A stretch of DNA of 32,000 nucleotides from contig NZ_CP034549.1 of assembly GCF_003966335.1 (NCBI RefSeq), positions 990,001 through 1,022,000 on the forward strand, in the 5' to 3' direction. Under the pieces are notes generated by a model, which saw only the letters and a list, made by a program, of their open reading frames with translations, had not been told where the DNA came from and did no database searches. The translations under genes and the position numbers were made by a program. Origin of the DNA: Nonlabens ponticola. GTDB taxonomy: Bacteria > Bacteroidota > Bacteroidia > Flavobacteriales > Flavobacteriaceae. Below are positions 469 through 31,387 of the stretch, one piece after another (position 1 is the stretch's first letter; each line of letters starts with the position of its first letter).

Positions 469-482
469 GCTTTCGCGAAAGC
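469..482. repeat. Iterated palindrome GCTTTCGCGAAAGC, copy 1 (intergenic)
   Basis: Perfect copy, 29 nt upstream of the regulator ATG at 512. Flanks are TTAC...GGTA. Confidence 0.95.
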
Positions 483-511
483 GGTATCCTTACCAACATA
501 TTGCAGCACAC

Positions 512-1531
512 ATGCCTCAAAAACTGACCCTCAAGAAAATAGCACAGGACTTAAAAGTGTCCATATCTACCGTGTCTAAAGCCTTGCGCGACTCGCACGA
601 GATAAGTGTAGAGACGCGAGACAAAATCAAGGATTATGCTAAAAAGTATAATTATAAGCCCAACAATATCGCCCTAAGTCTTAAGAACCAAAAGACTAAA
701 AAAATAGGGGTGATCATTCCAGAAATTGTTCACCATTTCTTTGCTACCGTTATCTCAGGTATAGAGAAAGTCGCTAATGACAAAGGTTATCAAGTGATTA
801 TTTGCTTGTCAGGTGAGAGTTTTGATAAGGAAGTTGTGAATATGGATATGCTAGCAAATGGTAGTATAGATGGCTTTATCATGAGTCTATCTAAGGAAAC
901 CCTTGAACGCCAGGACTACCATCACTTGCGCGAGGTGCTCAATCAAGGTATGCCTATCGTGATGTTTGACCGTGCGGTAGAAGGTATTCCTTGTGATAAG
1001 ATTATTATCGATGATGTGGCTGCTGCACAAAGCGCAACAGAGTTTTTACTACGTAAGGGTAAGAGTAAACTAGCTATTATATCAACCGTAGATTATGTAA
1101 ATGTGGGTCGATTGCGCACTCAAGGCTTTAAAGAAGCTTTACTTAAACGAGGTATTGAAGTAAGTGATAAGGATGTCTTAAAAATCGAGGATACCGAAAA
1201 TTCTACGACAATTATCGAAAACTTTTTAAAGGATACGGACTATGACGGTATCATCGCGGTGAATGAACTGTTTGCCGTGACCGCTAGCAAGGCCTTGCAA
1301 AAACTAGGTAAATCCATTCCTGATGATGCAAGCATCATTGCTTTTACAGATGGTATGTTGAGCAAGTATGCCAGTCCTACACTTACAACCATAGGACAAA
1401 AAGGTGAAGACATGGGTGGTCTAGCCGCTGCAAAGCTCATTGAGAGACTAGAGGCGCCTCAAACTATTGAAGAAAGCTACGAAACCGTTATCGTAAAAAC
1501 TTCGCTCGTAGAACGTGAAAGCACGCCATAA
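512..1531 (+). CDS. LacI/GalR-family transcriptional regulator (probable maltose/starch locus regulator)
   Basis: 339-aa ATG ORF. It has an N-terminal HTH (LKKIAQDLKVSISTVSKALRD) followed by a periplasmic-binding-protein-like sugar-binding core. It sits between the susC-like gene and the maltose/starch operon. Confidence 0.9.
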   Translation: MPQKLTLKKIAQDLKVSISTVSKALRDSHEISVETRDKIKDYAKKYNYKPNNIALSLKNQKTKKIGVIIPEIVHHFFATVISGIEKVANDKGYQVIICLSGESFDKEVVNMDMLANGSIDGFIMSLSKETLERQDYHHLREVLNQGMPIVMFDRAVEGIPCDKIIIDDVAAAQSATEFLLRKGKSKLAIISTVDYVNVGRLRTQGFKEALLKRGIEVSDKDVLKIEDTENSTTIIENFLKDTDYDGIIAVNELFAVTASKALQKLGKSIPDDASIIAFTDGMLSKYASPTLTTIGQKGEDMGGLAAAKLIERLEAPQTIEESYETVIVKTSLVERESTP

Positions 1532-1647
1532 TCTTAATATATTTACATCGCTACATTAAGTTGTAGTTATCAAAACTTATCTTCTTTCACACACATTGAT
1601 TGAGTTTTGATAAGTCATAAGGCTTATCGTCATTTAAAAATAACGAT

Positions 1648-3093
1648 ATGCAAAAGCCCAAGTTAGGTTTTTGGGACATCTGGAACATGAGTTTTGGATT
1701 CCTAGGTATTCAATTCGGTTTTGCCCTACAGGGTTCTACCATGTCACGCATTTTTGAGACGTTAGGAGCAAATAAGGATGAGATCCCATTATTGTGGATT
1801 GCAGCACCTCTTGCTGGACTTATCGTACAACCTATTATAGGTTATATGAGTGATAATACCTGGCACAAGCGTCTAGGGCGACGTCGTCCTTTCTTTCTAG
1901 TTGGCGCTGTGCTTAGTTCTATTGCGCTTCTTTTTATGCCATACTCAAGTGAGGTATGGATCGCTGCTGGATTATTGCTAGTGCTCGATGCTTCAATTAA
2001 TATAAGTATGGAGCCCTTCCGTGCCTTGGTGGCAGATAAATTGCCAGAATCACAACGCAGTTACGGGTTTGTAGTACAAACCTTAATAATAGGTGTAGGT
2101 ACCTGGATCGCCAGTAACCTGCCTAAATTCATGAATAATACGCTAGAAATCTCAAACGAGGCCGCGCCTGGTGTGGTTCCAGATTCGGTTAAAGTAGCCT
2201 TCGGTGTTGGTGCTTTTGTTTTTATGGCTTCTATTCTAGTAACCATATTTACTACAAAGGAATACTCGCCAGAACAGATGGCAGCGTTTGATGATGCTGA
2301 CGAGCATGAGGAGAAAAAAGGAATGTGGGCGACCATACTATCCACCTATGCGCTCATGCCTACCATCATGAAAAAATTGGGAGTTGTTCAGTTCTTCTCA
2401 TGGTTCGCATTTTTTGCCATGTGGACACTGGCTAACCCAGCACTTACCGAGCATGTATATAACGCGCCTAAACCTGATGTCAAAGATTTCGCACAATTAG
2501 ATGACAATGATGAAGTGTTGTTAGATGCAAATCAGGCTACACTATTTCTAAATCAAGCAGCACAAGACGATTATAAAACACAAGACAAAGCCTACAATGA
2601 CGCATCAGATGATGTAGGTTCAAAAATGGGAATCTACGGTTTGTCTTCCATGATATTTGCACTTGCCCTTACCTTTTATACGGCTTATAACAGTATCAAT
2701 AGAAAGTTTGTACACATGGCCAGTTTGACACTAGGAGCAGCAGGATTTTTGCTCATGCTGTACATTCCAGGACAACCTGATTACCTTATTTTATCCTTTA
2801 CTTTAATAGGTATCGCTTGGGGCAGCATATTGTCAATGCCGTATGCCATGCTATCCAGTAGTGTCAAGGCTTCAAAAATGGGCTTGATGATGGGTGTTTT
2901 CAACATGTTTATAGTGATACCACAAATCGTGGCAGCTTTAAGTGGTGTAGTATTCTTGAGCAGTCTTATAGGCGAGGAATCTATCCATGCTATGACCATC
3001 GCAGGAATTTTCTTGTTACTCAGTGCAGTATCAAACCTATTAATCACCAATAAAAACGCAATAACCTATCAACCCTCAATAGATAATGAGTAA
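1648..3093 (+). CDS. MFS sugar transporter (GPH/sucrose-H+ symporter-like; probable maltose/maltodextrin importer)
   Basis: 481 aa with about 12 hydrophobic segments. It carries an RLGRRRPF motif after the second helix, typical of this MFS subgroup. The 3' end overlaps the pgmB start by 8 nt (ATGAGTAA). Confidence 0.85.
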   Translation: MQKPKLGFWDIWNMSFGFLGIQFGFALQGSTMSRIFETLGANKDEIPLLWIAAPLAGLIVQPIIGYMSDNTWHKRLGRRRPFFLVGAVLSSIALLFMPYSSEVWIAAGLLLVLDASINISMEPFRALVADKLPESQRSYGFVVQTLIIGVGTWIASNLPKFMNNTLEISNEAAPGVVPDSVKVAFGVGAFVFMASILVTIFTTKEYSPEQMAAFDDADEHEEKKGMWATILSTYALMPTIMKKLGVVQFFSWFAFFAMWTLANPALTEHVYNAPKPDVKDFAQLDDNDEVLLDANQATLFLNQAAQDDYKTQDKAYNDASDDVGSKMGIYGLSSMIFALALTFYTAYNSINRKFVHMASLTLGAAGFLLMLYIPGQPDYLILSFTLIGIAWGSILSMPYAMLSSSVKASKMGLMMGVFNMFIVIPQIVAALSGVVFLSSLIGEESIHAMTIAGIFLLLSAVSNLLITNKNAITYQPSIDNE

Positions 3094-3748
3094 GAAAGGA
3101 TTCATATTTGATCTAGACGGCGTCGTCGTCGATACGGCAAAGTTTCATTTTGTCGCATGGCAGCGACTGGCCAAAAGTCTAGACATCAATTTTACAGAAA
3201 AGGAAAACGAGCAACTCAAAGGAGTGTCACGCGTTAGATCACTAGAAAAGATTCTAGAATGGGGCAATAAAACCATCGATCAAGAAACCTTTGACGAGAA
3301 ACTAGTCCAGAAGAATGAGGAATATCTCGAGATGGTTGAGACGCTTACTCAAGATGATATTCTACCAGGAGTACATGATTTTTTATTACGCTTACGCGAA
3401 AGCGAACAACCCATAGCCCTAGGAAGTGCGAGTAAGAATGCTCGTCCTATTCTAGAAAAACTCGGGATTATCGACTTATTTGACGCCATCGTGGATGGAA
3501 CAGACGTCAGCAATGCAAAACCAGATCCAGAGGTTTTTCTGCAGGCTGCAGACTTGCTGCATATGAATAAAAGAAAGTGTGTCGTTTTTGAAGACAGTAT
3601 TGCAGGAATCCAGGCGGCAAACGCCGCAGGAATGATCAGCATAGGAATAGGAAAAGAAGAAAATTTAAAAGAAGCCGATGAAGTTTTTGCAGGATTTAAT
3701 GAAATGCCAGCAGACTACATCGATCAACTATTGAAGAAAGAGAAGTAA
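3086..3748 (+). CDS. pgmB: Beta-phosphoglucomutase (HAD superfamily)
   Basis: 220 aa with HAD motifs FDLDGVVVDT, GSASKN, KPDPEVF and FEDSIAGIQAANAAGM. It lies directly upstream of a GH65 phosphorylase, the classic pairing. Confidence 0.9.
   Translation: MSKKGFIFDLDGVVVDTAKFHFVAWQRLAKSLDINFTEKENEQLKGVSRVRSLEKILEWGNKTIDQETFDEKLVQKNEEYLEMVETLTQDDILPGVHDFLLRLRESEQPIALGSASKNARPILEKLGIIDLFDAIVDGTDVSNAKPDPEVFLQAADLLHMNKRKCVVFEDSIAGIQAANAAGMISIGIGKEENLKEADEVFAGFNEMPADYIDQLLKKEK
3390..3403. repeat. Iterated palindrome, one-mismatch variant GCTTACGCGAAAGC (inside pgmB)
   Basis: Preceded by the conserved TTAC flank. It is read in the other phase, as L-R-L-R-E-S. Confidence 0.7.
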
Positions 3749-6051: not shown

Positions 6052-8172
<2,121 letters not shown>

Positions 8173-8195
8173 AATTCATTTTTAAAATTGATATT

Positions 8196-10136
8196 ATGAG
8201 AATTGTACTTCTTTCATTGATTGTTTTTGTTTCAGCTTTCGCGAAAGCGGAATCTCATAATACTTTTTCAAAAAAGCTTTCACAGACCAATCAGCTTTCA
8301 CTTCAAGAAAATCCAGGAAAAGATTACATGCCGAATCGTGTTGAACCGCCCAATTGGTGGGCTGATATGGAACATTCTCAGGTAGAAGTAATGCTTTATG
8401 GAGAATATATGGGGCAGGTTGATTTTGAAAGTGATCTTCCTATAGTAAAGGTGCGTAGAACTGAGAATCCCAATTATGCATTTGTAACGCTTGAAACTAA
8501 AGGAAAAGGACCTGGGACTTATTCGATCAGTTACAATATTTATGACACGTATTACGTCTTGGAATATGAATTATTAGAACGCAATCCGAATTCCAAACTA
8601 CGTAAAGGCTTTAATTCTAGCGATGCTATCTATTTGATCATGCCAGATCGATTTGCTAATGGTGATCCTAGCAACGATATCGTTGATGAAATGGCTGAAA
8701 AATCAGACCGATCATTCAAAGGCGGCCGTCACGGCGGTGATATTCAGGGTGTGATCGATCATTTGGATTATTTGGAGGATTTAGGCGTCACAGCTCTGTG
8801 GAGCACTCCACTGCTTGAAGATAACGACCAGCGTTATTCCTACCACGGCTATGCAGCGAGCGATGTGTACCGCATCGATCCACGTTATGGCTCAAACGAG
8901 TCATACAGAGAACTGGCAGATCAAATGCAGCAGCGAGACATGAAACTCATCATGGATTATGTAACCAACCATTGGGGTGCAACGCACTGGATGATGGATG
9001 ATTTACCCACGCAAACCTGGATACATCAATTTGATGATAATAAGGATCGTGATTTTCCTGTCGCTGGTTATGCCAACAGTAGTTATAGACAAACTACACA
9101 ATTAGATCCGTATGCAAGTGATCGTGACGAGACCTATGCAGAAAAGGGCTGGTTTGTAAGTAGCATGCCAGACTTAAATCAAAGTGAGCCACTAGTCTTG
9201 AACTACTTGATTCAAAATGCTATCTGGTGGATTGAATATGCAGGACTCGGCGGTTTGAGAGTGGATACCTATGCTTATAACGAGAAAGAAGGAATCGCCA
9301 AATGGACTAAGGCAATCATGGATGAATATCCCAATTTTACTATCGTGGGCGAGACGTGGATGCATGATCAGGCGCAAATCGCTTTCTGGCAAAAGGATAG
9401 TCCAGTAGCTGCCATTCAAAGTTATAATACCCATTTACCCAGCGTGATGGATTTTACACTGCACGATGCTGTCTTGACTGCTTTTAATGAGAAAGATCAG
9501 CAATGGGATAAAGGAATGGTTAAGGTCTATGAGAATTTTGTCAATGACTTTCTATATGCTGATGTCAATAACATTATGGTAATGGCAGGTAATCACGATA
9601 CCAATAGGTTGAGTGGCAACGGTGTTCTGGATGGAGATCTAGAGAAATTCAAACTCGCCATGACACTGATCCTAACAACTCGTGGTATACCACAAATCTA
9701 TTATGGTGATGAGATAGGTATGGCTGGTAATCGTGATACAGTTGGTGATGGCGACATACGACGAGATTTCCCAGGCGGTTGGAAAGGTGATAAGATTAAT
9801 GCCTTTACAAAGCCAACCAAAGAACAAAAGGCCTATCAGGATTTTACCAAAAAGCTATTGAATTACCGAAAGAACAAAGAGGTACTTCACACAGGTAAGC
9901 TACTTCACTTTGTGCCAGAGAATAATTGCTATGTCTATTTTAGACACAATGATAAAGATCGCGTGATGGTCATCATTAATAACAATGACAAACCTGTCAC
10001 GCTAGACATGAGCCGATTTAAAGAAGGTTTCAACGGCGCAACGCATGGAACTGATATCATCGACGATTCTAGATTACCGCTTTCAGGAAAATTGGTCATC
10101 GGTGCAGAGCACAGTATGATTATCGATATCGAGTAA
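8196..10136 (+). CDS. GH13 alpha-amylase-family enzyme (cyclomaltodextrinase/neopullulanase-like), secreted
   Basis: 646 aa with a signal peptide. GH13 regions present: MPDRFANGDPSND, GGDIQGVIDHLDYLEDLGVTALW, DYVTNH, GLRVD, IVGETW, GNHDTNR. Confidence 0.85.
   Translation: MRIVLLSLIVFVSAFAKAESHNTFSKKLSQTNQLSLQENPGKDYMPNRVEPPNWWADMEHSQVEVMLYGEYMGQVDFESDLPIVKVRRTENPNYAFVTLETKGKGPGTYSISYNIYDTYYVLEYELLERNPNSKLRKGFNSSDAIYLIMPDRFANGDPSNDIVDEMAEKSDRSFKGGRHGGDIQGVIDHLDYLEDLGVTALWSTPLLEDNDQRYSYHGYAASDVYRIDPRYGSNESYRELADQMQQRDMKLIMDYVTNHWGATHWMMDDLPTQTWIHQFDDNKDRDFPVAGYANSSYRQTTQLDPYASDRDETYAEKGWFVSSMPDLNQSEPLVLNYLIQNAIWWIEYAGLGGLRVDTYAYNEKEGIAKWTKAIMDEYPNFTIVGETWMHDQAQIAFWQKDSPVAAIQSYNTHLPSVMDFTLHDAVLTAFNEKDQQWDKGMVKVYENFVNDFLYADVNNIMVMAGNHDTNRLSGNGVLDGDLEKFKLAMTLILTTRGIPQIYYGDEIGMAGNRDTVGDGDIRRDFPGGWKGDKINAFTKPTKEQKAYQDFTKKLLNYRKNKEVLHTGKLLHFVPENNCYVYFRHNDKDRVMVIINNNDKPVTLDMSRFKEGFNGATHGTDIIDDSRLPLSGKLVIGAEHSMIIDIE
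8235..8248. repeat. Iterated palindrome, copy in a GH13 signal peptide
   Basis: Perfect copy covering codons 14-18, A-F-A-K-A (VSAFAKAESH). Confidence 0.95.
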
Positions 10137-10138
10137 GC

Positions 10139-12484
10139 ATGAAAATCATTTCATTTTTTTCTTGGCGATATATTCCAGCCTTAGGTTTATTAATTCTTTT
10201 ATCTGCTTGTTCAGATGATCAAACAAAGCCATCAAAAGCTAGTATAATTCAAGGTCAAACCTTGCCAGTTTATGCAAATAATGCTGGAGTTCAAATTGAC
10301 GTGCGTGATTTTTTGGTGGAGACTTCTCAGCTAGACAGTATTACAGCAACTCATGGCCTGGTTATCGAGAAGAGATCAGAATTTCTCTACGGCGTTCTGT
10401 TTGGTAGTAATGACCCATTCGTAAATCTGGTAACGCTGTGGACTGACGGCGTACGCAACGACATTCCGTTTATCAAGAAAGACGAGATGACCGCTTCTCT
10501 AATTTATGATGGAGACGCAGAAAATGTGCAGATCAAAGGTGAGTTTACCAACTGGTCACTTCAAGATCTCAAGGAAGAAGATGGCGAGCGTTATTATCTG
10601 GCTACCATTCCTAAAGGTAATTTTCAGTATCTGTTTGTTGAAAATGGAGTTGAAGAGCAATTAGATCCCAACGATCTTGACGTCGTGAGCAACGGCATGG
10701 GCGGCTATAACAGATTGCTTAGAAATACACCTAGCAAAAAAGCACCACGTCTCAGCTTGGGTCAAATCACTGAGGACGGTTTTACATTCAAGGCCAATGA
10801 AAAACTCGATCAGCTGTATGTTCTGTATGCCAATCAGAAGATAGAAGTACAGCAAGACAGTTTGAGTTATAAAGTTGATCTGCCTAAAGTTGATTTTACC
10901 AACCGTAATAATAAGACGCAGCTAGTGCGTGTCTATGGTGGTAATCTATCAGGGATTGCAAACGACTTGTTGATTCCCGTACAGGATGGAAAAGTCGTTA
11001 CGGATCCAGATCAATTATCACGTACAGATCATCATGCTCAAGTGCTATATTTCATGATGGTAGATCGTTTCTTGGACGGCGATCCATCAAACTCAAGCAA
11101 GGTGGATGATCCTGAGGTCTTGCCACAAGCCAATTACATGGGTGGCGATCTTGCTGGCGTACTGCAAAAAATTAATGACGGCTATTTTGAAGAATTGGGT
11201 ATCAATACCATCTGGTTATCGCCCATCACTCAAAACCCTGAAGGAGCCTACGGTCTTTGGCCAGAACCTCGTACAAAATTCAGCGGTTATCATGGTTACT
11301 GGCCTGTTTCAAATACCAAGATTGACGACCGATTTGGCGATCGACAGCTTATGCAGAACATCATCGCCGCGGCACACGAGCGAGACATCAATGTCATCTT
11401 AGATTATGTCGCAAACCATGTGCATGAAGAGCATCCAGTATATCAAAACAACCCAGATTGGGCTACAGATTTGTACTTGCCAGACGGCTCGCTAAATACA
11501 GAGCGTTGGGACGATCATCGCTTGACCACCTGGTTTGACACGTTCATGCCCACGCTGGATTTCTCAAAGCCAGAGGTAGTTGAAAAAATGACTGATTCTG
11601 CACTTTACTGGATGACAGAGTATGATCTGGACGGTTTCCGTCATGATGCGACAAAGCATGTTCCTGAGGTTTACTGGAAAACGCTCACGAGAAAAATACG
11701 CCAGAATACTGATCGACCTTTCTACCAGATTGGCGAGACTTACGGCTCGTACGACCTCATACGCAGCTACCTGAGTACTGGGATGCTAGATGCTCAGTTT
11801 GATTTTAATATGTATGATAGTGGTGTTTCCGCTTTCGCGAAAGCGGACAAATCATACAGCAATCTAACACAAACACTAGCCAAAGGACTGGATTACTACG
11901 GTCATCACCACTTGATGGGCAACATATCAGGAAACCAAGATCGTGCGAGATTCATAAGCTATGCCAGCGGCGACGTGTCATTTGATGAAGATGCCAAAGC
12001 AGCTGGGTGGACTAGAGATGTCATGATGAGCGACTCTACTGCTTATGATCGATTGGGAATGTTGCACGCTTTCAACATGACGATTCCTGGCGTTCCCGTG
12101 ATTTATTATGGTGATGAGTATGGCAGCATAGGAGCAAACGATCCTGACAACAGGCGCATGATGAAGTTTGATGATTTGAGTGAGCGCGAGCTTAAGTTGA
12201 AAGAACTCACAAAGCAATTGGTTGACTTGCGTCGCAATTCCATTTCCTTGATCTATGGCACCACAGAAATTGTGAGTGAAAGCAATGGTATGCTTTTCTT
12301 AAGAAGGACTTATTTTGACGAGGTCACCATGATCTTTTTCAATGAAAATCCTATATCTTTTAATGTAGTGAAAAAGCCAGGCGATGATGTTGCCGTAAAA
12401 ACAGTAAATGCCATTGAGAGCAAAACGCACTACCAAGTACCAGCAAAGAATTTTGCCATGGTCCAATTGAAAAACAAAAAATAA
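10139..12484 (+). CDS. GH13-family lipoprotein with N-terminal accessory/CBM48-like domain
   Basis: 781 aa with a lipobox (LLSAC). An E-set/CBM48-like segment (IKGEFTNWSL...YYLATIPKGNFQYLFVENG) is followed by the GH13 core: VDRFLDGDPSN, DYVANH, DGFRHDATKH, QIGETYG, GNQDRARF. Confidence 0.85.
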   Translation: MKIISFFSWRYIPALGLLILLSACSDDQTKPSKASIIQGQTLPVYANNAGVQIDVRDFLVETSQLDSITATHGLVIEKRSEFLYGVLFGSNDPFVNLVTLWTDGVRNDIPFIKKDEMTASLIYDGDAENVQIKGEFTNWSLQDLKEEDGERYYLATIPKGNFQYLFVENGVEEQLDPNDLDVVSNGMGGYNRLLRNTPSKKAPRLSLGQITEDGFTFKANEKLDQLYVLYANQKIEVQQDSLSYKVDLPKVDFTNRNNKTQLVRVYGGNLSGIANDLLIPVQDGKVVTDPDQLSRTDHHAQVLYFMMVDRFLDGDPSNSSKVDDPEVLPQANYMGGDLAGVLQKINDGYFEELGINTIWLSPITQNPEGAYGLWPEPRTKFSGYHGYWPVSNTKIDDRFGDRQLMQNIIAAAHERDINVILDYVANHVHEEHPVYQNNPDWATDLYLPDGSLNTERWDDHRLTTWFDTFMPTLDFSKPEVVEKMTDSALYWMTEYDLDGFRHDATKHVPEVYWKTLTRKIRQNTDRPFYQIGETYGSYDLIRSYLSTGMLDAQFDFNMYDSGVSAFAKADKSYSNLTQTLAKGLDYYGHHHLMGNISGNQDRARFISYASGDVSFDEDAKAAGWTRDVMMSDSTAYDRLGMLHAFNMTIPGVPVIYYGDEYGSIGANDPDNRRMMKFDDLSERELKLKELTKQLVDLRRNSISLIYGTTEIVSESNGMLFLRRTYFDEVTMIFFNENPISFNVVKKPGDDVAVKTVNAIESKTHYQVPAKNFAMVQLKNKK
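11831..11844. repeat. Iterated palindrome, copy inside a GH13 core
   Basis: Perfect copy covering codons 565-569, A-F-A-K-A (GVSAFAKADKS). Flanked by CC...GG, giving an 18-bp perfect palindrome. Confidence 0.95.
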
Positions 12485-12527
12485 TATTCAATCCAGTAGG
12501 ATTGCCAACCATCTTAAATTTTAAATT

Positions 12528-13958: not shown

Positions 13959-13978
13959 TTGAAAAGTGTTAATGATAG

Positions 13979-14708: not shown

Positions 14709-14748
14709 GCAATTTGTTAGCGTTGTAAACAACGCTTTACAAATGCTC

Positions 14749-16260: not shown

Positions 16261-16274
16261 GCTTTCGCGGAAGC
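16261..16274. repeat. Iterated palindrome, one-mismatch variant GCTTTCGCGGAAGC
   Basis: Carries the conserved TTAC...GGA flanks. It lies 20 nt after the radical SAM stop, inside the short ATG-initiated frame that is in phase with the downstream transferase-like gene. Confidence 0.8.
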
Positions 16275-23345: not shown

Positions 23346-24172
23346 ACTTAGGTAAAAAGAGCGGTAAGATGCTCCTTTTTGGTGGTGTTTATAGTAATCT
23401 ACAAGCGTTGGAGAGCCTAATAGATCTTGCCCAAAAAGAGGGCATTGCACCAGAAAACTGCCTTTGCACAGGTGATATTATCGGTTACTGCGGTCAACCT
23501 CAAGAGACGCTCGAGTTGTTCAAAAATTGGGGTGTGCACAGCATTTTGGGCAATGTAGAAATCCAGTTGCGCGATGACGAGGATCACTGCGGCTGCGATT
23601 TTACCACAGGCTCTCGATGTGATAATTTTAGTGAGATCTGGTACGCTTTCGCGAAAGCAAACTTACCAACAGCATCCAAACAATATTTTCAATCCTTATC
23701 AGACCACATACTTTTTGAGTTCGCTGGTAAGAAGGTAGGCGTCGTACATGGCAGCTATGATCACGTGTCGCAGTTCATATTCAATTCAACGAATTGGTAT
23801 GAAAAGCAAGCTAGCCTTGATGCTCTCAACGCAGACGTAGTTGTTGCTGGCCACTGCGGTTTGCCTTTTCATGATTCTCAAAATGGTCAATTATGGCTCA
23901 ATCCAGGTGTCATAGGTATGCCTGCCAATGATGGGACGACAAGAACCTGGGCGATGATTCTAGATGATGCTGATGGTTTAAATTTTGAGCACGTTACTTT
24001 GCAGTATGACTTTAATACAGCTGCTGATTTTATGAAAAAGCATCACCTACCGCAGGAATATGCGCACACCCTGAAAACTGGTATTTGGGATAATATGGAA
24101 ATTTTACCTGATTCAGAAAAGTTGGAGCAAGGCAAGACCATCGAACTTGATGTTCAAAAAGCTGTAGTTTGA
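23327..24172 (+). CDS. Metallophosphoesterase-fold protein with degenerate metal-binding motifs and an extra Cys cluster
   Basis: MDKNIIDLGKKSGKMLLFGGVYSNLQALE...TGDIIGYCGQP...GNVE...HCGCDFTTGSRC...VHGS...GHCGLPF...NPGVIGMPANDG. The order and spacing match calcineurin-like phosphoesterase motifs. I prefer the ATG at 23327, which overlaps the transporter end by 19 nt, over the ORF-track start at 23186, which lies inside the transporter. Confidence 0.7.
   Translation: MDKNIIDLGKKSGKMLLFGGVYSNLQALESLIDLAQKEGIAPENCLCTGDIIGYCGQPQETLELFKNWGVHSILGNVEIQLRDDEDHCGCDFTTGSRCDNFSEIWYAFAKANLPTASKQYFQSLSDHILFEFAGKKVGVVHGSYDHVSQFIFNSTNWYEKQASLDALNADVVVAGHCGLPFHDSQNGQLWLNPGVIGMPANDGTTRTWAMILDDADGLNFEHVTLQYDFNTAADFMKKHHLPQEYAHTLKTGIWDNMEILPDSEKLEQGKTIELDVQKAVV
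23645..23658. repeat. Iterated palindrome, copy inside the phosphoesterase-fold gene
   Basis: Perfect copy covering codons 107-111, A-F-A-K-A (IWYAFAKANLP). Confidence 0.95.
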
Positions 24173-24663
24173 TGAGAAGTCTTTTAGTTCTTACAGTGAT
24201 GTTGATATGTTCCGCTTTCGCGAAAGCGCAATCCATAAAATCAGTACTTGAAAAGTATAACCAGCACAGTGTTCCCTACATCACAGTTCAGGAAGTCAAA
24301 ATGGATTATGAAAACTACGTAATCCTTGATACGCGCAAAAAAGAAGAGTTTGAGGTAAGTCACCTGCCAGGTGCTTATTGGGTGGACGCTAATTTTGATC
24401 AGAATAATTTACCAAAATCGTTGAGAGATAATCCTAAGAAGCTTGTAATCGTTTACTGCACGATAGGTGTGCGTAGTGAGGATTTTGGCGAGCGACTTGT
24501 TGAGGCTGGTTACAAGAATGTGAGAAACTTATACGGTAGCATTTTCTCTTGGAAAGATGCTGGATATGAATTGGTTGACGACTTAGGTCAACCGACTGAT
24601 AGCGTACATACTTATTCAAAAACTTGGAGCAAATACCTCAAAACTGGAATTCCTATAAATTAG
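24172..24663 (+). CDS. Secreted rhodanese-like (sulfurtransferase) domain protein
   Basis: Signal peptide MRSLLVLTVMLICSAFA-KAQS. The rhodanese active-site loop is VIVYCTIGVRSE, followed by NLYGSIFSWKDAGYEL. The ATG overlaps the upstream stop (TGATG). Confidence 0.85.
   Translation: MRSLLVLTVMLICSAFAKAQSIKSVLEKYNQHSVPYITVQEVKMDYENYVILDTRKKEEFEVSHLPGAYWVDANFDQNNLPKSLRDNPKKLVIVYCTIGVRSEDFGERLVEAGYKNVRNLYGSIFSWKDAGYELVDDLGQPTDSVHTYSKTWSKYLKTGIPIN
24214..24227. repeat. Iterated palindrome, copy in the rhodanese signal peptide
   Basis: Perfect copy covering codons 15-19, A-F-A-K-A (CSAFAKAQSI). Flank is TCC...GC. Confidence 0.95.
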
Positions 24664-28014: not shown

Positions 28015-28028
28015 GCTTTCGCGAAAGC
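28015..28028. repeat. Iterated palindrome, copy 11 nt upstream of the metK start codon
   Basis: Perfect copy with the full conserved flanks TTAC...GGAAT. It is intergenic. Confidence 0.95.
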
Positions 28029-28218
28029 GGAATCATCTTCAAACGCTATCGCACTATTATAAAATTGAAAAGGTAAAGAAAGACTGTGCAAGAAATACAT
28101 CTGTTTTAGCATTTGTGTTTCTAGTAAAAGAAACGAGGTTGCAAGCAGTCAAATCAATCCTCAATGATGCAAATGTAAGCATAATCGCCACCTATAAAGT
28201 TTCGTCTAATAGATTTTC

Positions 28219-29481: not shown

Positions 29482-29856
29482 AAATCATCGTATTGGTTCA
29501 TCTATACTAACGGTGTTTTATCTAACTAGGTTTCAATAACATAGGTTAATGTGTTATAATTAACAGGTGTAATCACACATATTGTGTTTAATCCTGTAAT
29601 TGAGCTCTTTGTCGGTTATTAAATTTTATAATACGTTAAGGCGTAACAAATGTGGAGAAATGCATGGATGTGTGTTAAATAAAGCAAAACTTTTAATACT
29701 AAAACATATTAGTTATACTATATCTTTGATCTAAATAGCTTTATTTCAATTAGTTGCGTTAATCCTACTAATTTACTAGGAATTAAACTAAAAATAATTT
29801 GGTCACGTCATTTTTGTTTTTGAATATTTGTACTCGACGTTCATAACCATATTGAA

Positions 29857-29971
29857 ATTATCAAGAAAGGACGAGGGAACAGACCCATCGACTCCTTAGC
29901 AACCCTTCATTTTTGTCGACATTAAATGAAGAAGGTGCTAATTTCTGCCACGCAAGTGGACCAGATGATAC
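29857..29971 (+). promoter_or_regulatory. SAM-I (S-box) riboswitch upstream of metY-metX
   Basis: The sequence is TTATCAAGAAAGGACGAGGGAACAGACCCATCGACTCCTTAGCAACC..CTTCATTT...AAATGAAGAAGGTGCTAATTTCTGCCACGCAAGTGGACCAGATGATA. It carries the conserved S-box core: P1 TATCA/TGATA, GAGGGA, GACCC, GCAACC, GGTGCTAA, and helices P3 (CTTCATTT/AAATGAAG) and P4 (CCAC-GCAA-GTGG). It lies 123 nt upstream of the methionine-biosynthesis ORF. A T-run at 30001-30010 may belong to the expression platform. Confidence 0.88.
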
Positions 29972-30094
29972 TCATGTAAGTAGGTTATACTACCACACAG
30001 TTTCTTTTTTGATGTTATCTCACCACACTGGTGCGGCAACTCTGTATTTCAAACCGATTATGGACATTATTTATTGATGTTTAAAAGAAACAAC

Positions 30095-31387
30095 ATGTCA
30101 ACTTCAAATTTTGCAACCCAGTCATTACACACAGGTCATGACTTCAAAAACAACGGTGGTACAAGAGCAGTGCCGCTCTATCAATCCACTAGCTATGTGT
30201 TCAACAACAGCGATCACGCAGCAAATCTGTTCTCGCTCGCCGAGCCTGGTTTTATCTACACCAGGATCAATAACCCAACGGTAGATGTGCTGGAACAGCG
30301 ACTCACCGCTCTAGAAGGTGGTCTTGCAGCCGTGGCAACCGCCTCGGGAACCAGCGCCATTTCAACAACGCTACTTACCTTATTGCGTGCTGGCGATCAT
30401 ATCGTCGCTAGTAATTCGCTCTATGGCGGTACTTATAACTTGCTTTCGGTGACACTTCCTAGATTGGGTATCACGACCACATTTGTCAATCCTAATGATG
30501 ATGACGCTTTCGCGAAAGCGGTACAAGAAAACACCAGAGCCATATTTGTAGAGTCTCTAGGTAATCCCAAACTTGATGTGTTAGATCTCAAAAAAATCAG
30601 TGTACAAGCCAAAGATGCCAAAGTGCCATTGATCGTAGATAATACAGTCGCCACACCTTACTTACTCAATCCTATTGAGCACGGCGCAAACATCGTCATT
30701 CATTCATTGACCAAGTATATCAACGGTAACGGTACAGCTCTAGGCGGCATCATCATCGACGCAGGAACCTTTGATTGGACAAACGGCAAATTCCCAGAAT
30801 TTACAGAGCCATCGCCAGGATACCATGGTCTGGTTTACAGCGAAGCGCTGGAAGCTGCTGCCTTTATTGCCAAAGTGCGAATAGAAGGCCTGCGTGATCT
30901 AGGTGGTGCGATATCACCGTTCAATGCATGGCAAATCATTCAAGGTTTAGAAACCCTACAATTGCGTATTGAAAAGCACAGTCAAAGCGCACTGGAATTA
31001 GCTAAATGGCTACAAACTCAAGAACAAGTAGAATGGGTCAACTATCCAGGATTAGAGTCCAGCGATTACTACGATCTGGCAAAAAAATATCTGCCTAAAG
31101 GACAAAGTGGTATCGTTACTTTTGGAGTAAAAGGTGGTTATGAAAGTGCCAAAAAAGTAGTCGACAGCGCTCAGGTATTCTCTTTGCTAGCCAACATAGG
31201 CGATACAAAATCCTTGATCATTCACCCAGCAAGCACCACGCACCAGCAGCTTAAGGACGAAGATCAGCTTAGTACTGGTGTGACAAAGGATTTGATCAGA
31301 CTATCCGTTGGTCTTGAAGATATAGAGGATTTGAAACAAGATCTCGTCAACGCATTTGCAGCCATCAAATCTGGAGTTACCGCCTAG
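30095..31387 (+). CDS. metY: O-acetylhomoserine aminocarboxypropyltransferase/sulfhydrylase (PLP-dependent, Cys/Met metabolism family)
   Basis: MSTSNFATQSLHTGH...RAVPLYQSTSYVF...YTRINNPT...HSLTKYINGNGTALGGIIID (PLP lysine)...SLIIHPASTTHQQL. I prefer the ATG at 30095. The ORF track begins at TTG 30074/ATG 30077, which cannot be excluded. Confidence 0.9.
   Translation: MSTSNFATQSLHTGHDFKNNGGTRAVPLYQSTSYVFNNSDHAANLFSLAEPGFIYTRINNPTVDVLEQRLTALEGGLAAVATASGTSAISTTLLTLLRAGDHIVASNSLYGGTYNLLSVTLPRLGITTTFVNPNDDDAFAKAVQENTRAIFVESLGNPKLDVLDLKKISVQAKDAKVPLIVDNTVATPYLLNPIEHGANIVIHSLTKYINGNGTALGGIIIDAGTFDWTNGKFPEFTEPSPGYHGLVYSEALEAAAFIAKVRIEGLRDLGGAISPFNAWQIIQGLETLQLRIEKHSQSALELAKWLQTQEQVEWVNYPGLESSDYYDLAKKYLPKGQSGIVTFGVKGGYESAKKVVDSAQVFSLLANIGDTKSLIIHPASTTHQQLKDEDQLSTGVTKDLIRLSVGLEDIEDLKQDLVNAFAAIKSGVTA
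30506..30519. repeat. Iterated palindrome, copy inside metY
   Basis: Perfect copy covering codons 138-142 (from ATG 30095), A-F-A-K-A (DDDAFAKAVQE). Confidence 0.95.

What the first reader, a model, noticed from the sequence alone, without database searches (positions are those of the whole stretch)
469..30519. Highly iterated 14-nt perfect palindrome GCTTTCGCGAAAGC scattered through genes and spacers
Nine perfect copies start at 469, 6097, 8235, 11831, 18903, 23645, 24214, 28015 and 30506. Two single-mismatch copies start at 3390 (GCTTACGCGAAAGC) and 16261 (GCTTTCGCGGAAGC). A given 14-mer is expected about 1e-4 times in 32 kb at uniform composition (32000/4^14).

The flanks are also conserved: TTAC-core-GG(A/T)A, near-palindromic over about 20-22 nt. 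One copy (11829-11846) is a perfect 18-mer. Three copies are intergenic and eight lie inside functionally unrelated genes (pgmB, GH97, two GH13, SusC-like, phosphoesterase-fold, rhodanese, metY).

All seven perfect intragenic copies are in the same phase. They use the identical codons GCT-TTC-GCG-AAA-GCN (A-F-A-K-A). None of the three phases contains a stop (the others read L-S-R-K and F-R-E-S), so the phase bias is not stop avoidance. Identical synonymous positions point to conservation at the DNA or RNA level rather than the peptide level.

This behaviour recalls cyanobacterial HIP1 (GCGATCGC) and the in-frame Rickettsia palindromic elements. I do not recognise this sequence as a described element. 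The core contains TCGCGA/CGCG. Possible roles include a DNA-binding-protein site, a methylation or restriction-related motif, a recombination or uptake signal, or an RNA hairpin (CCGCUUU-CGCG-AAAGCGG).
Basis: seen in the sequence. Interest (0 to 1): 0.85.

Follow-up and report, generated by a model that had tools for sequence, protein, structure and literature searches.

The report
Highly iterated 16-bp palindrome in Nonlabens
One exact 14-16-base palindrome, (C)GCTTTCGCGAAAGC(G), is written by point substitutions about every 5 kb into genes and spacers of the marine flavobacterial genus Nonlabens and in no relative sampled, giving a second, independent case of the unexplained "highly iterated palindrome" phenomenon known from cyanobacteria.

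Summary
Nine perfect and two one-mismatch copies sit at the stated coordinates, against 0.1 expected.

The window comes from Nonlabens ponticola. The word occurs in all eight or so Nonlabens-type genomes and MAGs sampled, at one per 4.6 kb. It is absent from 1.56 Mb of 77 other Flavobacteriaceae loci and from two lytic Nonlabens phages.

- **Origin:** copies arise by substitution, not insertion.
- **Conservation:** many sit at orthologous positions in species whose flanks have diverged.
- **Mismatch spectrum:** all-or-none (0 mismatches far exceeds 1 and 2).
- **Reading frame:** the AFAKA bias is real but partial (59/24/17% over 127 genic copies). Codon cost largely predicts it.

New finding: the real unit is larger than the 14-mer. 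It has an invariant 16-bp core plus about 20-nt degenerate arms that are two-fold symmetric. These arms are T/G-rich and C-poor on the 5' side of each strand. They appear in spacers and in all three reading frames. There is no within-copy complementarity between the arms.

This pattern argues for duplex DNA read by a two-fold-symmetric protein. It argues against an RNA hairpin, a peptide motif or a mobile insert.

The best reading is a HIP1/uptake-sequence-class genomic word maintained by biased fixation. The binding protein and the function are unknown. I found no published description.

The parts
469..482 (.). Perfect copy in a spacer, 30 nt upstream of the ATG of the LacI-family regulator (512-1531).
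   Evidence: The orthologous position carries the word in all 4 other Nonlabens loci (perfect in L119 and L120, one mismatch in L121 and L122), while the spacer around it has diverged.
3390..3403 (.). One-mismatch copy (GCTTACGCGAAAGC) inside the HAD/beta-phosphoglucomutase gene, read as RLRES.
   Evidence: A perfect copy would require Leu to Phe at a position that is Leu in all orthologues, so the protein appears to hold this copy one step short.
6097..6110 (.). Perfect copy, phase 0 (AFAKA), at the end of the GH97 signal peptide (residues 15-19).
   Evidence: There is no length change against GH97 homologues.
8235..8248 (.). Perfect copy, phase 0, at the end of the signal peptide of the GH13 cyclomaltodextrinase-like enzyme (residues 14-18).
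   Evidence: The same position carries the word in L119 (12359), L120 (12350) and L121 (12350). Outgroup signal peptides have the same length and a different sequence.
11829..11846 (.). Perfect 18-bp palindrome CCGCTTTCGCGAAAGCGG (core 11831-11844), phase 0, in the second GH13 gene (residues 565-569).
   Evidence: It is perfect in L120 and L121. L119 has GCATTTGCGACAGC (AFATA), L122 has GCTTTTGCAGTAGC (AFAVA), and outgroup L150 has AFARK. There is no indel.
16261..16274 (.). One-mismatch copy (GCTTTCGCGGAAGC) in the spacer between the radical-SAM/DUF3641 gene and the DUF2064 gene.
   Evidence: The orthologous spacer in strain BBFL7 holds a one-mismatch copy with a different mismatch, GCTTACGCGAAAGC.
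18903..18916 (.). Perfect copy, phase 0, in the SusC-like TonB-dependent receptor (residues 620-624).
   Evidence: It is perfect at the orthologous site in BBFL7. L122 encodes the same AFAKA with other codons, GCATTTGCAAAAGC.
23645..23658 (.). Perfect copy, phase 0, in the metallophosphoesterase gene (residues 154-158).
   Evidence: It is perfect at the orthologous site in BBFL7 (L319 12777).
24214..24227 (.). Perfect copy, phase 0, at the end of the rhodanese signal peptide (residues 16-20).
   Evidence: No copy with 2 or fewer mismatches is present in the BBFL7 rhodanese region, so this is a lineage-specific gain or loss.
28015..28028 (.). Perfect copy in a spacer, 12 nt upstream of the metK start (28003, minus strand). 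It lies between the SAM-II riboswitch aptamer (28096-28168) and the start codon.
   Evidence: A copy sits at the same distance from the metK ATG in BBFL7 (L319 9976) and L325 (9976). In L324 and L321 a copy lies 34-62 nt upstream.
30506..30519 (.). Perfect copy, phase 0, in the O-acetylhomoserine sulfhydrylase-type (MetY) gene (residues 145-149).
   Evidence: BBFL7 has GCTTTTACAAATGC (AFTNA) at this position. Metagenome contig L272, 78% identical to this gene, has a copy at the matching position.
449..502 (.). Example of the full unit: the core plus about 20-nt arms. The 5' arm is T/G-rich and C-poor; the 3' arm is A/C-rich and G-poor. The same arms flank every copy listed above.
   Evidence: Flank profiles over 189-206 copies. 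The profile persists in intergenic-only copies and in a non-redundant set. Chance matches lack it.

Best explanation
**What it is.** This is a lineage-specific genomic 'word' of the genus Nonlabens. It belongs to the same phenomenological class as cyanobacterial HIP1 and the DNA uptake sequences of Pasteurellaceae and Neisseriaceae.

**Shown here.**
- The unit is a two-fold-symmetric DNA site of about 54 bp. It has an essentially invariant 16-bp core, CGCTTTCG|CGAAAGCG. Each side carries about 20 nt of degenerate, position-specific arm: T at flank positions 3, 4, 7, 10 and 13 from the core edge, almost no C, and purine at positions 5 and 15.
- Copies are made by point substitutions wherever the local sequence can bear them: spacers, signal-peptide ends, and pre-existing AFAxA peptides.
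- Copies then stay perfect at orthologous positions while the surrounding DNA diverges.

**Inferred.**
- The site is read as duplex DNA by a two-fold-symmetric (dimeric) sequence-specific protein. Each half-site is recognised independently.
- The hundreds of copies per genome are kept by a fixation bias that favours the perfect word at every site.
- The specific mechanism I commit to as most likely is a self-DNA recognition drive of the uptake-sequence type. Fragments or alleles carrying the word are preferentially taken up or recombined, so the word spreads and is restored by homologous exchange among conspecifics.

**Probabilities.**
- DNA-level, substitution-made, lineage-specific iterated palindrome: about 0.9.
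- Duplex site for a symmetric protein: about 0.6.
- Drive rather than site-by-site functional selection: about 0.5.
- Uptake or recombination bias as the source of the drive: about 0.3.
For: **Enrichment and distribution**
- The window has 11 copies against 0.1 expected.
- About 196 kb of Nonlabens DNA, fetched through proteins and not through the motif, holds 43 perfect copies.
- Outgroups hold none: 1.54 Mb from 76 Flavobacteriaceae loci and 21 kb of Patiriisocius.
- A codon-independent model expects about 0.003 copies per Mb of coding DNA.

**Substitution, not insertion**
- Orthologue alignments show no indels at motif sites.

**Conservation**
- Six of the 8 perfect window copies that have a BBFL7 counterpart are also perfect in BBFL7 (no counterpart was examined for 6097), although related Nonlabens-type DNA is only about 73-78% identical to the window.
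- The spacer copies upstream of metK, between rpoB and rpoC, and after groEL recur across species.

**All-or-none spectrum**
- Nonlabens DNA has 197 perfect, 42 one-mismatch and 0 two-mismatch copies per Mb. Copies with 3 or more mismatches match the outgroup background.
- In 674 kb of metagenome loci the counts are 171, 18 and 21.

**Duplex, dimeric reading**
- The palindrome runs through the centre.
- The arm profile is mirror-symmetric position by position.
- It is present in spacers and in all three phases.
- It is robust to de-duplication and absent from chance matches.
- There is no excess complementarity within a copy beyond 4 nt from the core. There is also no extra folding energy compared with swapped flanks: -14.3 against -13.9 to -14.15 kcal/mol.

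**Drive-like behaviour**
- Copies are over-represented in spacers: 35% of copies lie outside long ORFs, whereas bacterial genomes are typically only about 10% non-coding (own knowledge).
- Phase use tracks codon cost, but the costly LSRK phase (rare TCG and CGA codons) reaches 17% against 1% predicted.
- A constrained Leu holds the copy at 3390 one step short.

**Other support**
- Two closely related lytic Nonlabens phages have no copy with 2 or fewer mismatches. P = 0.0008 for one 35.7-kb phage at host density.
- From my own knowledge, uptake sequences likewise have a strong core with weaker flanks, frame use set by coding cost, conserved positions, and lineage-specific dialects.
Against: - No binding protein, competence system, methylase or repair enzyme could be examined. 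The N. ponticola genome was not retrievable.
- Natural competence is not known for Nonlabens. Known uptake sequences are not palindromes and are about five times denser.
- Conservation at orthologous sites is also what site-by-site functional selection would give. Xu et al. (PMC5861425) argue exactly this for HIP1.
- The arm composition (loss of C and A, gain of T and G on the 5' side of each strand) could in principle be a mutational footprint and not a recognition preference.
- The host of the two phages (IMCC12024) was not itself checked for the word.
Confidence: 0.4

Rival explanations
1. The word is the binding site of an abundant chromosome-organising protein, comparable to Noc/NBS, ParB/parS, SlmA/SBS or MatP/matS, or to the nucleoid-structure role proposed for HIP1. 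Each copy is kept by ordinary purifying selection because it contributes to nucleoid organisation, segregation or division control.
For: - The site is a dyad-symmetric duplex with a perfect 14-16-bp core, like the 14-bp NBS and the 16-bp parS palindromes. From my own knowledge, those also lie inside genes and are conserved.
- Arm features repeat at roughly 10-bp intervals (purine at flank positions 5 and 15; T at 3-4 and 13), which suggests contact along one face of the helix or DNA bending.
- Positions are conserved across species.
- The word is absent from lytic phages.
- Xu et al. (PMC5861425) argue for selection and a nucleoid role for HIP1.
Against: - The density of one per 4.6 kb implies about 600-800 sites per genome. 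From my own knowledge, that is one to two orders of magnitude more than any known parS, NBS, SBS or matS set.
- Site-by-site selection must be strong enough to impose rare codons and charged LSRK/RFRES peptides at hundreds of places.
- The all-or-none mismatch spectrum is sharper than is usual for architectural protein sites.
Confidence: 0.25
2. The word is a by-product of a methylase-linked or nick-directed short-patch repair system, as in Elhai's model for HIP1. An enzyme acts at the central TCGCGA or at the whole palindrome. Mismatches in near-copies are repaired towards the word. Repeated short-patch resynthesis running outwards from the site leaves the strand-asymmetric arms as a mutational footprint: C to T and A to G on the 5' side of each strand.
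For: - The core contains a typical type II target, TCGCGA, just as HIP1 contains CGATCG and GATC (PMC4390886).
- The arm skew is what deamination on one strand plus resynthesis of the other would give. It fades at about 20-25 nt, the scale of short repair patches.
- The skew is strongest at third codon positions in genes.
- Degenerate copies keep the arm skew.
- The two phages have no TCGCGA at all, against about 2.6 expected from a second-order model.
Against: - TCGCGA outside the word occurs at its expected frequency in every Nonlabens locus. No sub-word or half-site is enriched on its own, so the unit is the full 16-mer, far longer than any known methylase or Vsr target.
- The arm profile is position-specific. 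For example, T is 71% and C 0.8% at flank position 10, against T 35% and C 16% at position 8 in spacers. This looks like a recognition preference, not a smooth mutational gradient.
- The phage TCGCGA deficit is not significant, and CGCG is low in the phages generally.
Confidence: 0.12
3. The word acts as a single-strand DNA signal. The 3' half of the word on either strand is GCGAAAGC, the 'extraordinarily stable mini-hairpin' of Hirao and colleagues. When a strand is exposed by lagging-strand replication, resection or uptake, this nuclease-resistant fold, which binds SSB poorly, marks a priming site or protects a 3' end. The G/T-rich sequence just 5' of it would be a good RecA substrate, giving a Chi-like role. 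The palindrome makes the signal work on both strands.
For: - GCGAAAGC is the 3' half of the 14-mer on both strands, as the sequence shows directly.
- The review PMC13037366 reports Tm 76.5 C, exonuclease resistance, poor SSB binding, and presence at the primase start site of the phage G4 complementary-strand origin. It also states that the octamer is rarer than expected in natural DNA.
- On each strand the 5' arm is G/T-rich. From my own knowledge, RecA prefers such sequence.
- Several one-mismatch copies change the second or third loop base (GCGGAAGC, GCGTAAGC, GCGACAGC). The review lists these variants as still stable (Tm 71-72 C).
Against: - A single-strand signal would not need the other half (GCTTTCGC) to be invariant, nor the arms to be mirror-symmetric position by position.
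- The most common one-mismatch change is at the outermost base (9 of 24), which removes a G-C pair of the mini-hairpin on one strand.
- GCGAAAGC outside the full word is not enriched (3 CGAAAGC outside copies in the window).
- Nearest-neighbour folding gives only about -5 kcal/mol, although the review says such parameters do not capture the mini-hairpin.
Confidence: 0.08
4. The word functions in RNA. A CGCUUU-CGCG-AAAGCG hairpin with a GU-rich 5' side and an AC-rich 3' side would act in transcripts, affecting stability, processing, or translation of leaders such as metK.
For: - Many copies lie in transcribed DNA.
- Some copies are at a fixed distance from start codons. One sits 12 nt upstream of the metK ATG in three species, downstream of a SAM-II aptamer.
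- Because of the symmetry, either strand would give the same RNA.
Against: - The loop itself is self-complementary, which a hairpin does not need.
- The hairpin is weak, at -4.3 to -5.9 kcal/mol.
- The arms show no covariation or extra pairing within copies.
- Spacer copies occur equally in tandem, convergent and divergent spacers, with no preferred distance to starts or stops.
- No Rfam family matches.
Confidence: 0.04
5. The pattern is trivial. It could be selection for the peptide AFAKA (for example as a signal-peptidase site), a small mobile insertion such as a MITE or a Rickettsia palindromic element, a local operator of the neighbouring LacI-family regulator, or an assembly or vector artefact.
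For: - About a quarter to a third of phase-0 copies with a complete N-terminus lie at signal-peptide ends (25 of 75 within 35 residues of the first Met, most of them visibly signal peptides). AFA|KA resembles an AxA cleavage site.
- One copy lies upstream of a LacI-family gene.
Against: - 35% of copies are outside long ORFs, and 41% of genic copies are in the other two phases.
- Codons are identical in all copies, while relatives encode the same peptide with other codons.
- There is no indel against orthologues.
- Copies lie in unrelated genes across the whole 32 kb.
- The word is present in independent isolate genomes, MAGs and metagenomes from several projects.
Confidence: 0.01

Closest known systems
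HIP1 (GCGATCGC), the highly iterated palindrome of cyanobacteria, and the 'alternate HIPs' (Elhai 2015, PMC4390886; Xu, Lawrence and Durand 2018, PMC5861425)
   Same: - It is a GC-rich perfect palindrome, enormously over-represented, in both genes and spacers.
- It is made by substitutions and conserved at orthologous positions.
- It is lineage-specific and sometimes extended by conserved flanking bases.
- It contains a type II-like palindromic hexamer.
- Its function is still unknown.
   Different: - The invariant core is 16 bp, not 8-10 bp.
- It has about 20-nt degenerate symmetric arms, which are not described for HIP1.
- It is about 2-10 times sparser, at one per 4.6 kb.
- It occurs in a different phylum (Bacteroidota) and in a single genus.
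- The inner hexamer and other sub-words are not over-represented on their own, so a methylase-sized target does not explain it.
- No cognate methylase could be checked.
DNA uptake sequences: USS of Pasteurellaceae and DUS of Neisseriaceae (own knowledge: Smith 1995; Findlay and Redfield 2009; Maughan 2010; Mell 2012; Frye 2013)
   Same: - Hundreds to thousands of near-perfect copies per genome.
- A strong core with weaker flanks (USS).
- Perfect copies outnumber one-mismatch copies.
- Copies lie in genes at tolerant positions, with reading-frame use set by coding cost.
- The word is enriched in spacers, conserved at orthologous sites, and has genus- or family-specific 'dialects'.
   Different: - Known uptake sequences are asymmetric 9-12-mers at about one per kb. 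DUS often occur as inverted pairs that form terminators.
- This word is itself a palindrome, is longer and is sparser.
- Competence and sequence-biased uptake are not known for Nonlabens or any flavobacterium carrying such a word.
Palindromic sites of chromosome-organising proteins: parS (16 bp), Noc NBS (14 bp), SlmA SBS, MatP matS (own knowledge)
   Same: - Perfect or near-perfect 12-16-bp palindromes read by dimers.
- Often inside genes and conserved between species.
- The TTTC...GAAA half-site pattern resembles parS (TGTTTCAC|GTGAAACA) and NBS (ATTTCCC|GGGAAAT).
   Different: - Those sets have about 4 to 70 sites per genome with regional bias.
- This word implies about 600-800 sites.
- The spacing between TTTC and GAAA is 2 bp here, against 4 bp in parS and NBS.
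Mini-hairpin DNA d(GCGAAAGC) (Hirao and colleagues; review PMC13037366)
   Same: The exact octamer is the 3' half of the word on both strands.
   Different: - The mini-hairpin is a property of single-stranded DNA, seen at a few phage and plasmid priming sites.
- Nothing here shows that it forms in vivo.
- It does not explain the invariant 5' half or the symmetric arms.
Rickettsia palindromic elements and REP/BIME elements (own knowledge)
   Same: - They are repeated palindromic sequences.
- Rickettsia palindromic elements are found in frame inside genes.
   Different: - Rickettsia palindromic elements are insertions of about 100-150 bp that add peptide segments.
- REPs are extragenic imperfect hairpins of 20-40 nt tied to RAYT transposases.
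- In Nonlabens there is no insertion, and two thirds of the copies are inside genes.

Membership tests
HIP (highly iterated palindrome) class | A short perfect palindrome over-represented by orders of magnitude against composition-based expectation. | tested here: met
   The window has 11 copies against 0.1 expected. Nonlabens DNA has 197 perfect copies per Mb against 0 in 1.54 Mb of relatives. A codon model expects about 0.003 per Mb.
HIP (highly iterated palindrome) class | Found both inside genes and between them, and created by substitution, not insertion. | tested here: met
   Of 195 copies, 127 lie in ORFs and 68 outside. Orthologue alignments show no indels.
HIP (highly iterated palindrome) class | Sites conserved between related genomes beyond the neutral expectation (Xu et al. 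2018). | tested here: met
   Six of the 8 perfect window copies that have a BBFL7 counterpart are also perfect in BBFL7. Several sites are shared by 3-5 species while their flanks differ. No formal control-word test was run.
HIP (highly iterated palindrome) class | The sequence GCGATCGC (HIP1), or a cognate DNA methyltransferase that targets the word or its core (Elhai 2015). | tested here: not met
   The sequence is different. A cognate methylase could not be sought because no genome access was available. TCGCGA alone is not enriched or depleted in the host.
DNA uptake sequences (USS/DUS) | The host is naturally competent and takes up DNA carrying the word preferentially. | not testable with these tools
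   This needs uptake or transformation assays. No literature was found on Nonlabens competence or on such a word.
DNA uptake sequences (USS/DUS) | About 10^3 near-perfect copies genome-wide, perfect copies outnumbering near-misses, and an extended weaker flanking consensus. | tested here: met
   The density of one per 4.6 kb implies about 600-800 copies in 2.9 Mb. The mismatch spectrum is 171:18:21. Arms extend about 20 nt. The genome-wide count is an extrapolation from about 200 kb.
DNA uptake sequences (USS/DUS) | An asymmetric word with orientation, often in inverted pairs that act as terminators (DUS). | tested here: not met
   The word is a perfect palindrome. Spacer copies are single and occur in all spacer types.
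DNA uptake sequences (USS/DUS) | Reading-frame use inside genes is explained by coding cost. | tested here: met
   Observed phase shares are 59/24/17%, against 74/26/1% from codon usage.
Rickettsia palindromic elements / MITE-like inserts | Each copy is an insertion that adds sequence relative to orthologues lacking it. | tested here: not met
   Motif-bearing and motif-free orthologues have the same length at all sites examined.
REP/BIME elements with RAYT | Extragenic imperfect hairpins, often clustered, associated with a RAYT transposase. | tested here: not met
   65% of copies are inside ORFs. Copies are single, with a median spacing of 3.6 kb. RAYT presence was not testable.
parS / NBS-type chromosome-organising sites | Few to tens of sites per genome with regional bias, bound by ParB- or Noc-type dimers. 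| tested here: not met
   The density of one per 4.6 kb holds in every Nonlabens locus sampled, including unrelated regions. Regional bias and the binding protein are not testable here.
Chi sites | A short asymmetric word co-oriented with replication and recognised on one strand by RecBCD/AddAB. | tested here: not met
   The word is a 16-bp palindrome, so it has no orientation.
Structured RNA element | Base pairs supported by covariation, with strand-specific occurrence. | tested here: not met
   There is no pairing excess beyond 4 nt from the core. There is no folding gain over swapped flanks. No Rfam family matches.
Mini-hairpin DNA d(GCGNNAGC) | The sequence GCGAAAGC is present in the strand. 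| tested here: met
   Positions 7-14 of the 14-mer on both strands, seen directly in the sequence. Properties are taken from PMC13037366. Formation in vivo is not testable here.

The most novel reading that the evidence does not exclude
Nonlabens carries a dedicated self-DNA recognition system built on a palindromic site of about 54 bp. Two versions are not excluded by my evidence.

- It is the first uptake-sequence-type signal outside Proteobacteria, read by a symmetric receptor.
- It is a Chi-like or priming signal that uses the nuclease-resistant GCGAAAGC mini-hairpin on either strand.

In both versions the site's binding protein is encoded only in this genus. This would give a tractable heterotrophic model for how and why 'highly iterated palindromes' arise. 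That question has been open for HIP1 for thirty years.
Probability: 0.3. Interest if true: 0.85.

Novelty: new variant of a known kind. Interest (0 to 1): 0.72.

Why it matters
Hyper-abundant genomic words are rare. Each understood case (Chi, uptake sequences, KOPS) revealed a machine that reads the whole chromosome. The palindromic case, HIP1, is still unexplained after three decades.

A second, independent palindromic word in another phylum makes the question comparative.

- **Sharp boundary:** the word is present in every Nonlabens sampled and absent from sister genera. Simple gene presence/absence profiling should therefore nominate the reader protein.
- **Long, information-rich site:** the 16-bp core plus arms makes pull-down or DAP-seq straightforward.

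The word also matters in practice.

- It biases codon choice and even peptide sequence at hundreds of sites. AFAKA at signal-peptide ends is one example.
- It can mislead alignment. It caused two non-orthologous signal peptides to be aligned.
- It is a clean taxonomic marker for Nonlabens DNA in metagenomes.

Tried and rejected
- **Retrieving the source genome.** Exact-protein look-ups for MetY, LacI, MetK and the identical database entry P0001 all failed. No whole-genome map, replichore analysis or partner-gene search was therefore possible.
- **Extended-hairpin idea.** The complementary composition of the arms suggested a long stem. In-register pairing equals the shuffled-partner expectation beyond 4 nt from the core. 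Folding energy equals that of swapped flanks. Rejected.
- **Codon artefact in the arms.** I suspected that the period-3 look of the arm profile came from phase-0 genes. The same positions stand out in spacer-only copies. Rejected.
- **Redundancy artefact.** Of 202 copies, 191 remain after removing flanks at least 60% identical, and the profile is unchanged. Rejected.
- **Terminator, promoter or operator role.** Spacer copies show no preferred spacer type or distance to starts or stops. The LacI-operator idea fails because copies lie in unrelated genes across the window.
- **Methylase or restriction footprint at TCGCGA.** The host frequency outside the word is as expected. The phage deficit (0 against about 2.6) is not significant. 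Inconclusive.
- **First whole-locus alignment.** The first MAFFT run timed out. The faster run mis-paired the window's GH97 signal peptide with the GH13 signal peptide of the other species because both carry the word. I corrected this with the protein alignment.
- **Literature.** Searches for the 14-mer, for TTTCGCGAAA, for iterated palindromes or uptake sequences in flavobacteria, and for Nonlabens with palindromes returned nothing relevant.
- **First viral scan.** The viral-contig scan with the 14-mer returned mostly chance hits in unrelated GC-rich contigs. I used these only as a negative control.

Full report
**1. The observation**

A search for GCTTTCGCGAAAGC allowing up to two mismatches returns eleven sites and nothing else. 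Nine are perfect: 469, 6097, 8235, 11831, 18903, 23645, 24214, 28015 and 30506. Two have one mismatch: 3390 and 16261. Dinucleotide-preserving shuffles give 0.10 matches on average.

All seven perfect intragenic copies are in the phase that reads GCT-TTC-GCG-AAA-GCN (AFAKA). The copy at 3390 reads RLRES. Three copies are intergenic.

Pfam confirms the host genes. They are a LacI-family regulator, an MFS transporter, a HAD beta-phosphoglucomutase, GH65, GH97, three GH13 enzymes, a SusC/SusD pair, a metallophosphoesterase, a rhodanese, MetK and a MetY-type enzyme. Ten-mers of this word are the most frequent 10-mers in the window.

**2. Whose genome, and how widespread**

The window's MetK is 100% identical to that of Nonlabens ponticola, which has a complete genome with a contig of 2.87 Mb. 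That genome could not be fetched.

A search of one genome per species with the GH65 protein returned 80 loci of about 22 kb.
- The four closest loci (79-80% identity) are all Nonlabens. They carry 5, 4, 4 and 2 perfect copies.
- The other 76 Flavobacteriaceae loci total 1.54 Mb and include Gillisia, Salegentibacter, Christiangramia, Psychroflexus, Winogradskyella, Polaribacter and Flavobacterium. They carry none.

Loci fetched through MetK orthologues agree.
- BBFL7 has 4 perfect copies in 21 kb.
- Three further Nonlabens-type contigs have 4, 6 and 5 copies.
- Patiriisocius hiemis has none.

In about 196 kb of Nonlabens DNA fetched through proteins, and not through the motif, there are 43 perfect copies. 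That is one per 4.6 kb, which extrapolates to roughly 600-800 copies per genome.

Of these, 104 are low-GC marine or saline-lake contigs totalling 674 kb, with 171 perfect copies. Those that overlap the window's genes are 73-78% identical to it, so they come from other Nonlabens-type species.

Two closely related lytic Nonlabens phages (P12024S and P12024L, 35.7 kb each) have no site with fewer than three mismatches. P = 0.0008 for one phage at host density.

**3. How copies arise and persist**

Protein and DNA alignments with orthologues show no length change at any motif site.
- In the second GH13 gene, AFAKA (window, L120, L121) aligns with AFATA (L119), AFAVA (L122) and AFARK (outgroup).
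- In SusC, L122 encodes AFAKA with other codons (GCATTTGCAAAAGC), while the window and BBFL7 have the exact word.
- In MetY, BBFL7 has GCTTTTACAAATGC.
- In the signal peptides of GH97, GH13 and the rhodanese, outgroups have unrelated residues of the same length.

Copies are therefore made by point substitutions, often synonymous ones, at places that already tolerate the peptide.

Many positions are shared between species whose flanks have diverged.
- The spacer before the LacI-family gene: all five species.
- The GH13 signal peptide: four species.
- The GH13b site: three of five species.
- The SusC and metallophosphoesterase sites.
- The spacer 12 nt before the metK ATG: window, BBFL7 and L325.
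- The rpoB-rpoC spacer and the spacer after groEL: L321 and L324.

Six of the eight perfect window copies that have a BBFL7 counterpart are perfect in BBFL7. Other sites are lineage-specific, so there is turnover.

The mismatch spectrum is bimodal. Nonlabens DNA has 197 perfect, 42 one-mismatch and 0 two-mismatch sites per Mb. From three mismatches upward the numbers match the outgroup background.

**4. The reading-frame bias**

Of 195 perfect copies, 68 lie outside long ORFs. Among the 127 genic copies, 75 read AFAKA, 30 read RFRES and 22 read LSRK.

A model that simply multiplies codon frequencies predicts shares of 74, 26 and 1%. The preference for AFAKA is thus what coding cost predicts. 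The notable point is that the costly third phase, which uses the rare codons TCG and CGA, is used far more than predicted.

At 3390 a perfect copy would need Leu to Phe at a position that is Leu in every orthologue. The copy stops one step short.

About a quarter to a third of AFAKA copies sit at signal-peptide ends, where A-F-A fits the cleavage region. Some 35% of copies lie outside long ORFs, although bacterial genomes are typically only about a tenth non-coding (own knowledge). All of this describes a pressure that acts on DNA everywhere and is checked by protein constraint.

**5. New: the unit is larger and two-fold symmetric**

The bases next to the 14-mer are C (92%) and G (91%), which gives a 16-bp core.

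Beyond that, for about 20 nt on each side, composition is strongly skewed.
- On each strand the 5' arm has C at 2-10% (background 19%) and is rich in T and G.
- The 3' arm mirrors this: G-poor and rich in A and C.

This pattern holds separately for spacer copies and for each of the three phases, oriented by gene.

The skew is also position-specific.
- T peaks at flank positions 3, 4, 7, 10 and 13.
- C is below 3% at positions 4, 10 and 12.
- Purines are preferred at positions 5 and 15.
- The same positions stand out in spacer-only copies, so this is not a codon effect.
- The profile survives removal of related copies.

Chance matches to the 14-mer in unrelated contigs show no skew. One- and two-mismatch copies keep it.

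Within a copy the two arms are no more complementary than arms taken from different copies, beyond 4 nt from the core. The real sequences fold no better than chimeras with swapped arms.

A consensus that is mirror-symmetric without covariation within copies is the signature of two identical half-sites read independently on duplex DNA. The palindrome also continues through the centre, where a hairpin loop would be free to vary. I therefore read the unit as a duplex site of about 54 bp for a two-fold-symmetric protein. The roughly 10-bp recurrence of some arm features suggests contacts or bending along one face of the helix. That last point is suggestive only.

**6. What it is not**
- **Not a peptide motif:** copies occur in spacers and in all three phases, always with identical codons.
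- **Not a mobile insert:** there are no indels.
- **Not a local operator:** it lies in unrelated genes throughout 32 kb and throughout other loci.
- **Not a terminator or promoter element:** spacer copies occur in tandem, convergent and divergent spacers with no preferred distance.
- **Not a known RNA family:** the only Rfam hits are two SAM riboswitches.
- **Not an assembly artefact:** it appears in independent isolates, MAGs and metagenomes.
- **Not explained by a sub-word:** TCGCGA outside the word is at its expected frequency in every Nonlabens locus, and no half-site is enriched. A methylase-sized target does not account for it.

**7. Mechanism**

*Shown.* The site is DNA-level, made by substitution, lineage-specific, with an all-or-none spectrum, conserved positions and symmetric arms.

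*Inferred.* A dimeric protein reads it. A fixation bias in favour of the perfect word maintains hundreds of copies against coding cost.

Two kinds of bias are possible.

(a) *Site-by-site selection.* Each copy would serve a chromosome-level function, as Xu et al. argue for HIP1 (PMC5861425).

(b) *Molecular drive.* The one experimentally established precedent for words of this copy number and anatomy is biased DNA uptake and recombination (USS and DUS; own knowledge). Recent preprints also link HIP1 itself to transformation efficiency (10.1101/2024.09.10.611283, listed).

I lean towards drive for three reasons.
- The pressure looks uniform across sites.
- It overrides codon preference.
- It produces a sharp perfect-or-nothing spectrum.

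Absence from lytic phages fits either reading.

I put the uptake-type self-recognition reading at about 0.3, and an architectural-protein reading at about 0.25.

*Repair model.* In this model the arms are a mutational footprint of outward short-patch resynthesis. It fits the direction of the skew (C to T and A to G on the 5' side of each strand) and its 20-25-nt reach. It does not fit the position-specific profile or the 16-bp specificity. I put it at about 0.12.

*Single-strand model.* The 3' half of the word on either strand is GCGAAAGC. Hirao and colleagues showed that this octamer forms an extraordinarily stable, exonuclease-resistant mini-hairpin that binds SSB poorly. It occurs at the primase start site of the phage G4 complementary-strand origin (PMC13037366). 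A single-strand role in priming, or in 3'-end protection next to a G/T-rich RecA-friendly arm, is therefore conceivable. It does not explain the invariant other half or the mirror-symmetric arms. I put it at about 0.08.

**8. Comparison with known systems, and novelty**

The closest known thing is HIP1. The behaviour is the same, but the sequence, length (16 against 8 bp), density and phylum differ. This word also has long symmetric arms and no sign of a methylase-sized core.

It shares most population-level features with uptake sequences. However, it is palindromic, and competence is unknown in this genus.

It fails the defining features of Rickettsia palindromic elements, REP elements, Chi and parS/NBS-type sets (see the membership table).

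I found no description of this word or of any iterated palindrome in flavobacteria in the searchable literature. That library is incomplete.

I rate it a new variant of a known kind. Its main value is the sharp genus boundary and the information-rich site, which should make the reader protein easy to find.

Noticed in passing
window 28096-28168 (-) and 28015-28028: A SAM-II riboswitch aptamer (54.9 bits) lies upstream of metK. The palindrome sits between the aptamer and the metK ATG, 12 nt from the start codon. A copy is at the same distance in BBFL7 and L325. It might interfere with, or have been co-opted into, the expression platform.
   Followed up: partly
window 29855-29971 (+): A SAM-I (S-box) riboswitch (67.2 bits) lies upstream of the MetY-type gene at 30074. 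Two neighbouring, divergently oriented methionine/SAM genes therefore use two different SAM riboswitch classes.
   Followed up: no
window 6055-8172: The GH97 gene lies between GH65 and the GH13 cyclomaltodextrinase-like gene only in this genome. In L119-L121, GH13 follows GH65 directly, and the GH97 homologues there are only 43-44% identical. The apparently inserted or relocated gene nevertheless carries its own copy of the word in its signal peptide.
   Followed up: partly
window 16261-16274 and L319 19370 / L120 20416: The orthologous spacer between the radical-SAM/DUF3641 and DUF2064 genes holds a one-mismatch copy in both species, but with different mismatches: GCGGAAGC half in the window, GCTTACGC half in BBFL7. 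This suggests independent decay of an ancestral perfect copy. Both changes affect the same symmetric position of the palindrome, the second loop base of the GCGAAAGC mini-hairpin on one strand (A to G in the window, A to T in BBFL7).
   Followed up: partly
L322, L323 (Nonlabens phages P12024S and P12024L): Both phages lack the word and also lack TCGCGA entirely (about 2.6 expected from a second-order model). CGCG is generally scarce in them. Each encodes a DNA methyltransferase. This may reflect restriction avoidance in this host range, but it is not significant on its own.
   Followed up: partly
viral-contig loci L022, L036, L053, L078, L086, L089, L108, L114, L117: A minority of IMG/VR contigs (GC 35-47%) carry 2-3 copies each. 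Across the low-GC viral copies with C..G flanks (n=17, from these and a few single-copy loci) the C-poor 5' arm is also present. These are probably prophages or host fragments of Nonlabens-type bacteria, in contrast with the copy-free lytic phages.
   Followed up: partly
window 28246-29481 (-) and 24854-26443 (-): Two minus-strand genes carry no copy of the word. One has a Peptidase_S74 (endosialidase-chaperone, phage tail-fibre-like) domain; the other (529 aa) has no Pfam match. BBFL7 lacks both genes at this position. They may be recently acquired DNA that has not yet accumulated the word.
   Followed up: no
window 21996-23345 and 23186-24172: The listed ORFs for the SSF-family transporter and the metallophosphoesterase overlap by 160 nt. 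In BBFL7 the called genes overlap by only 16 nt, so the TTG start at 23186 is probably too far upstream.
   Followed up: no
alignment of window 1-16400 with L119-L122: The word itself misled the DNA aligner. The window's GH97 signal-peptide copy (6097) was aligned to the GH13 signal-peptide copy of the other species. Iterated words of this kind can create false orthology in automated alignments.
   Followed up: yes
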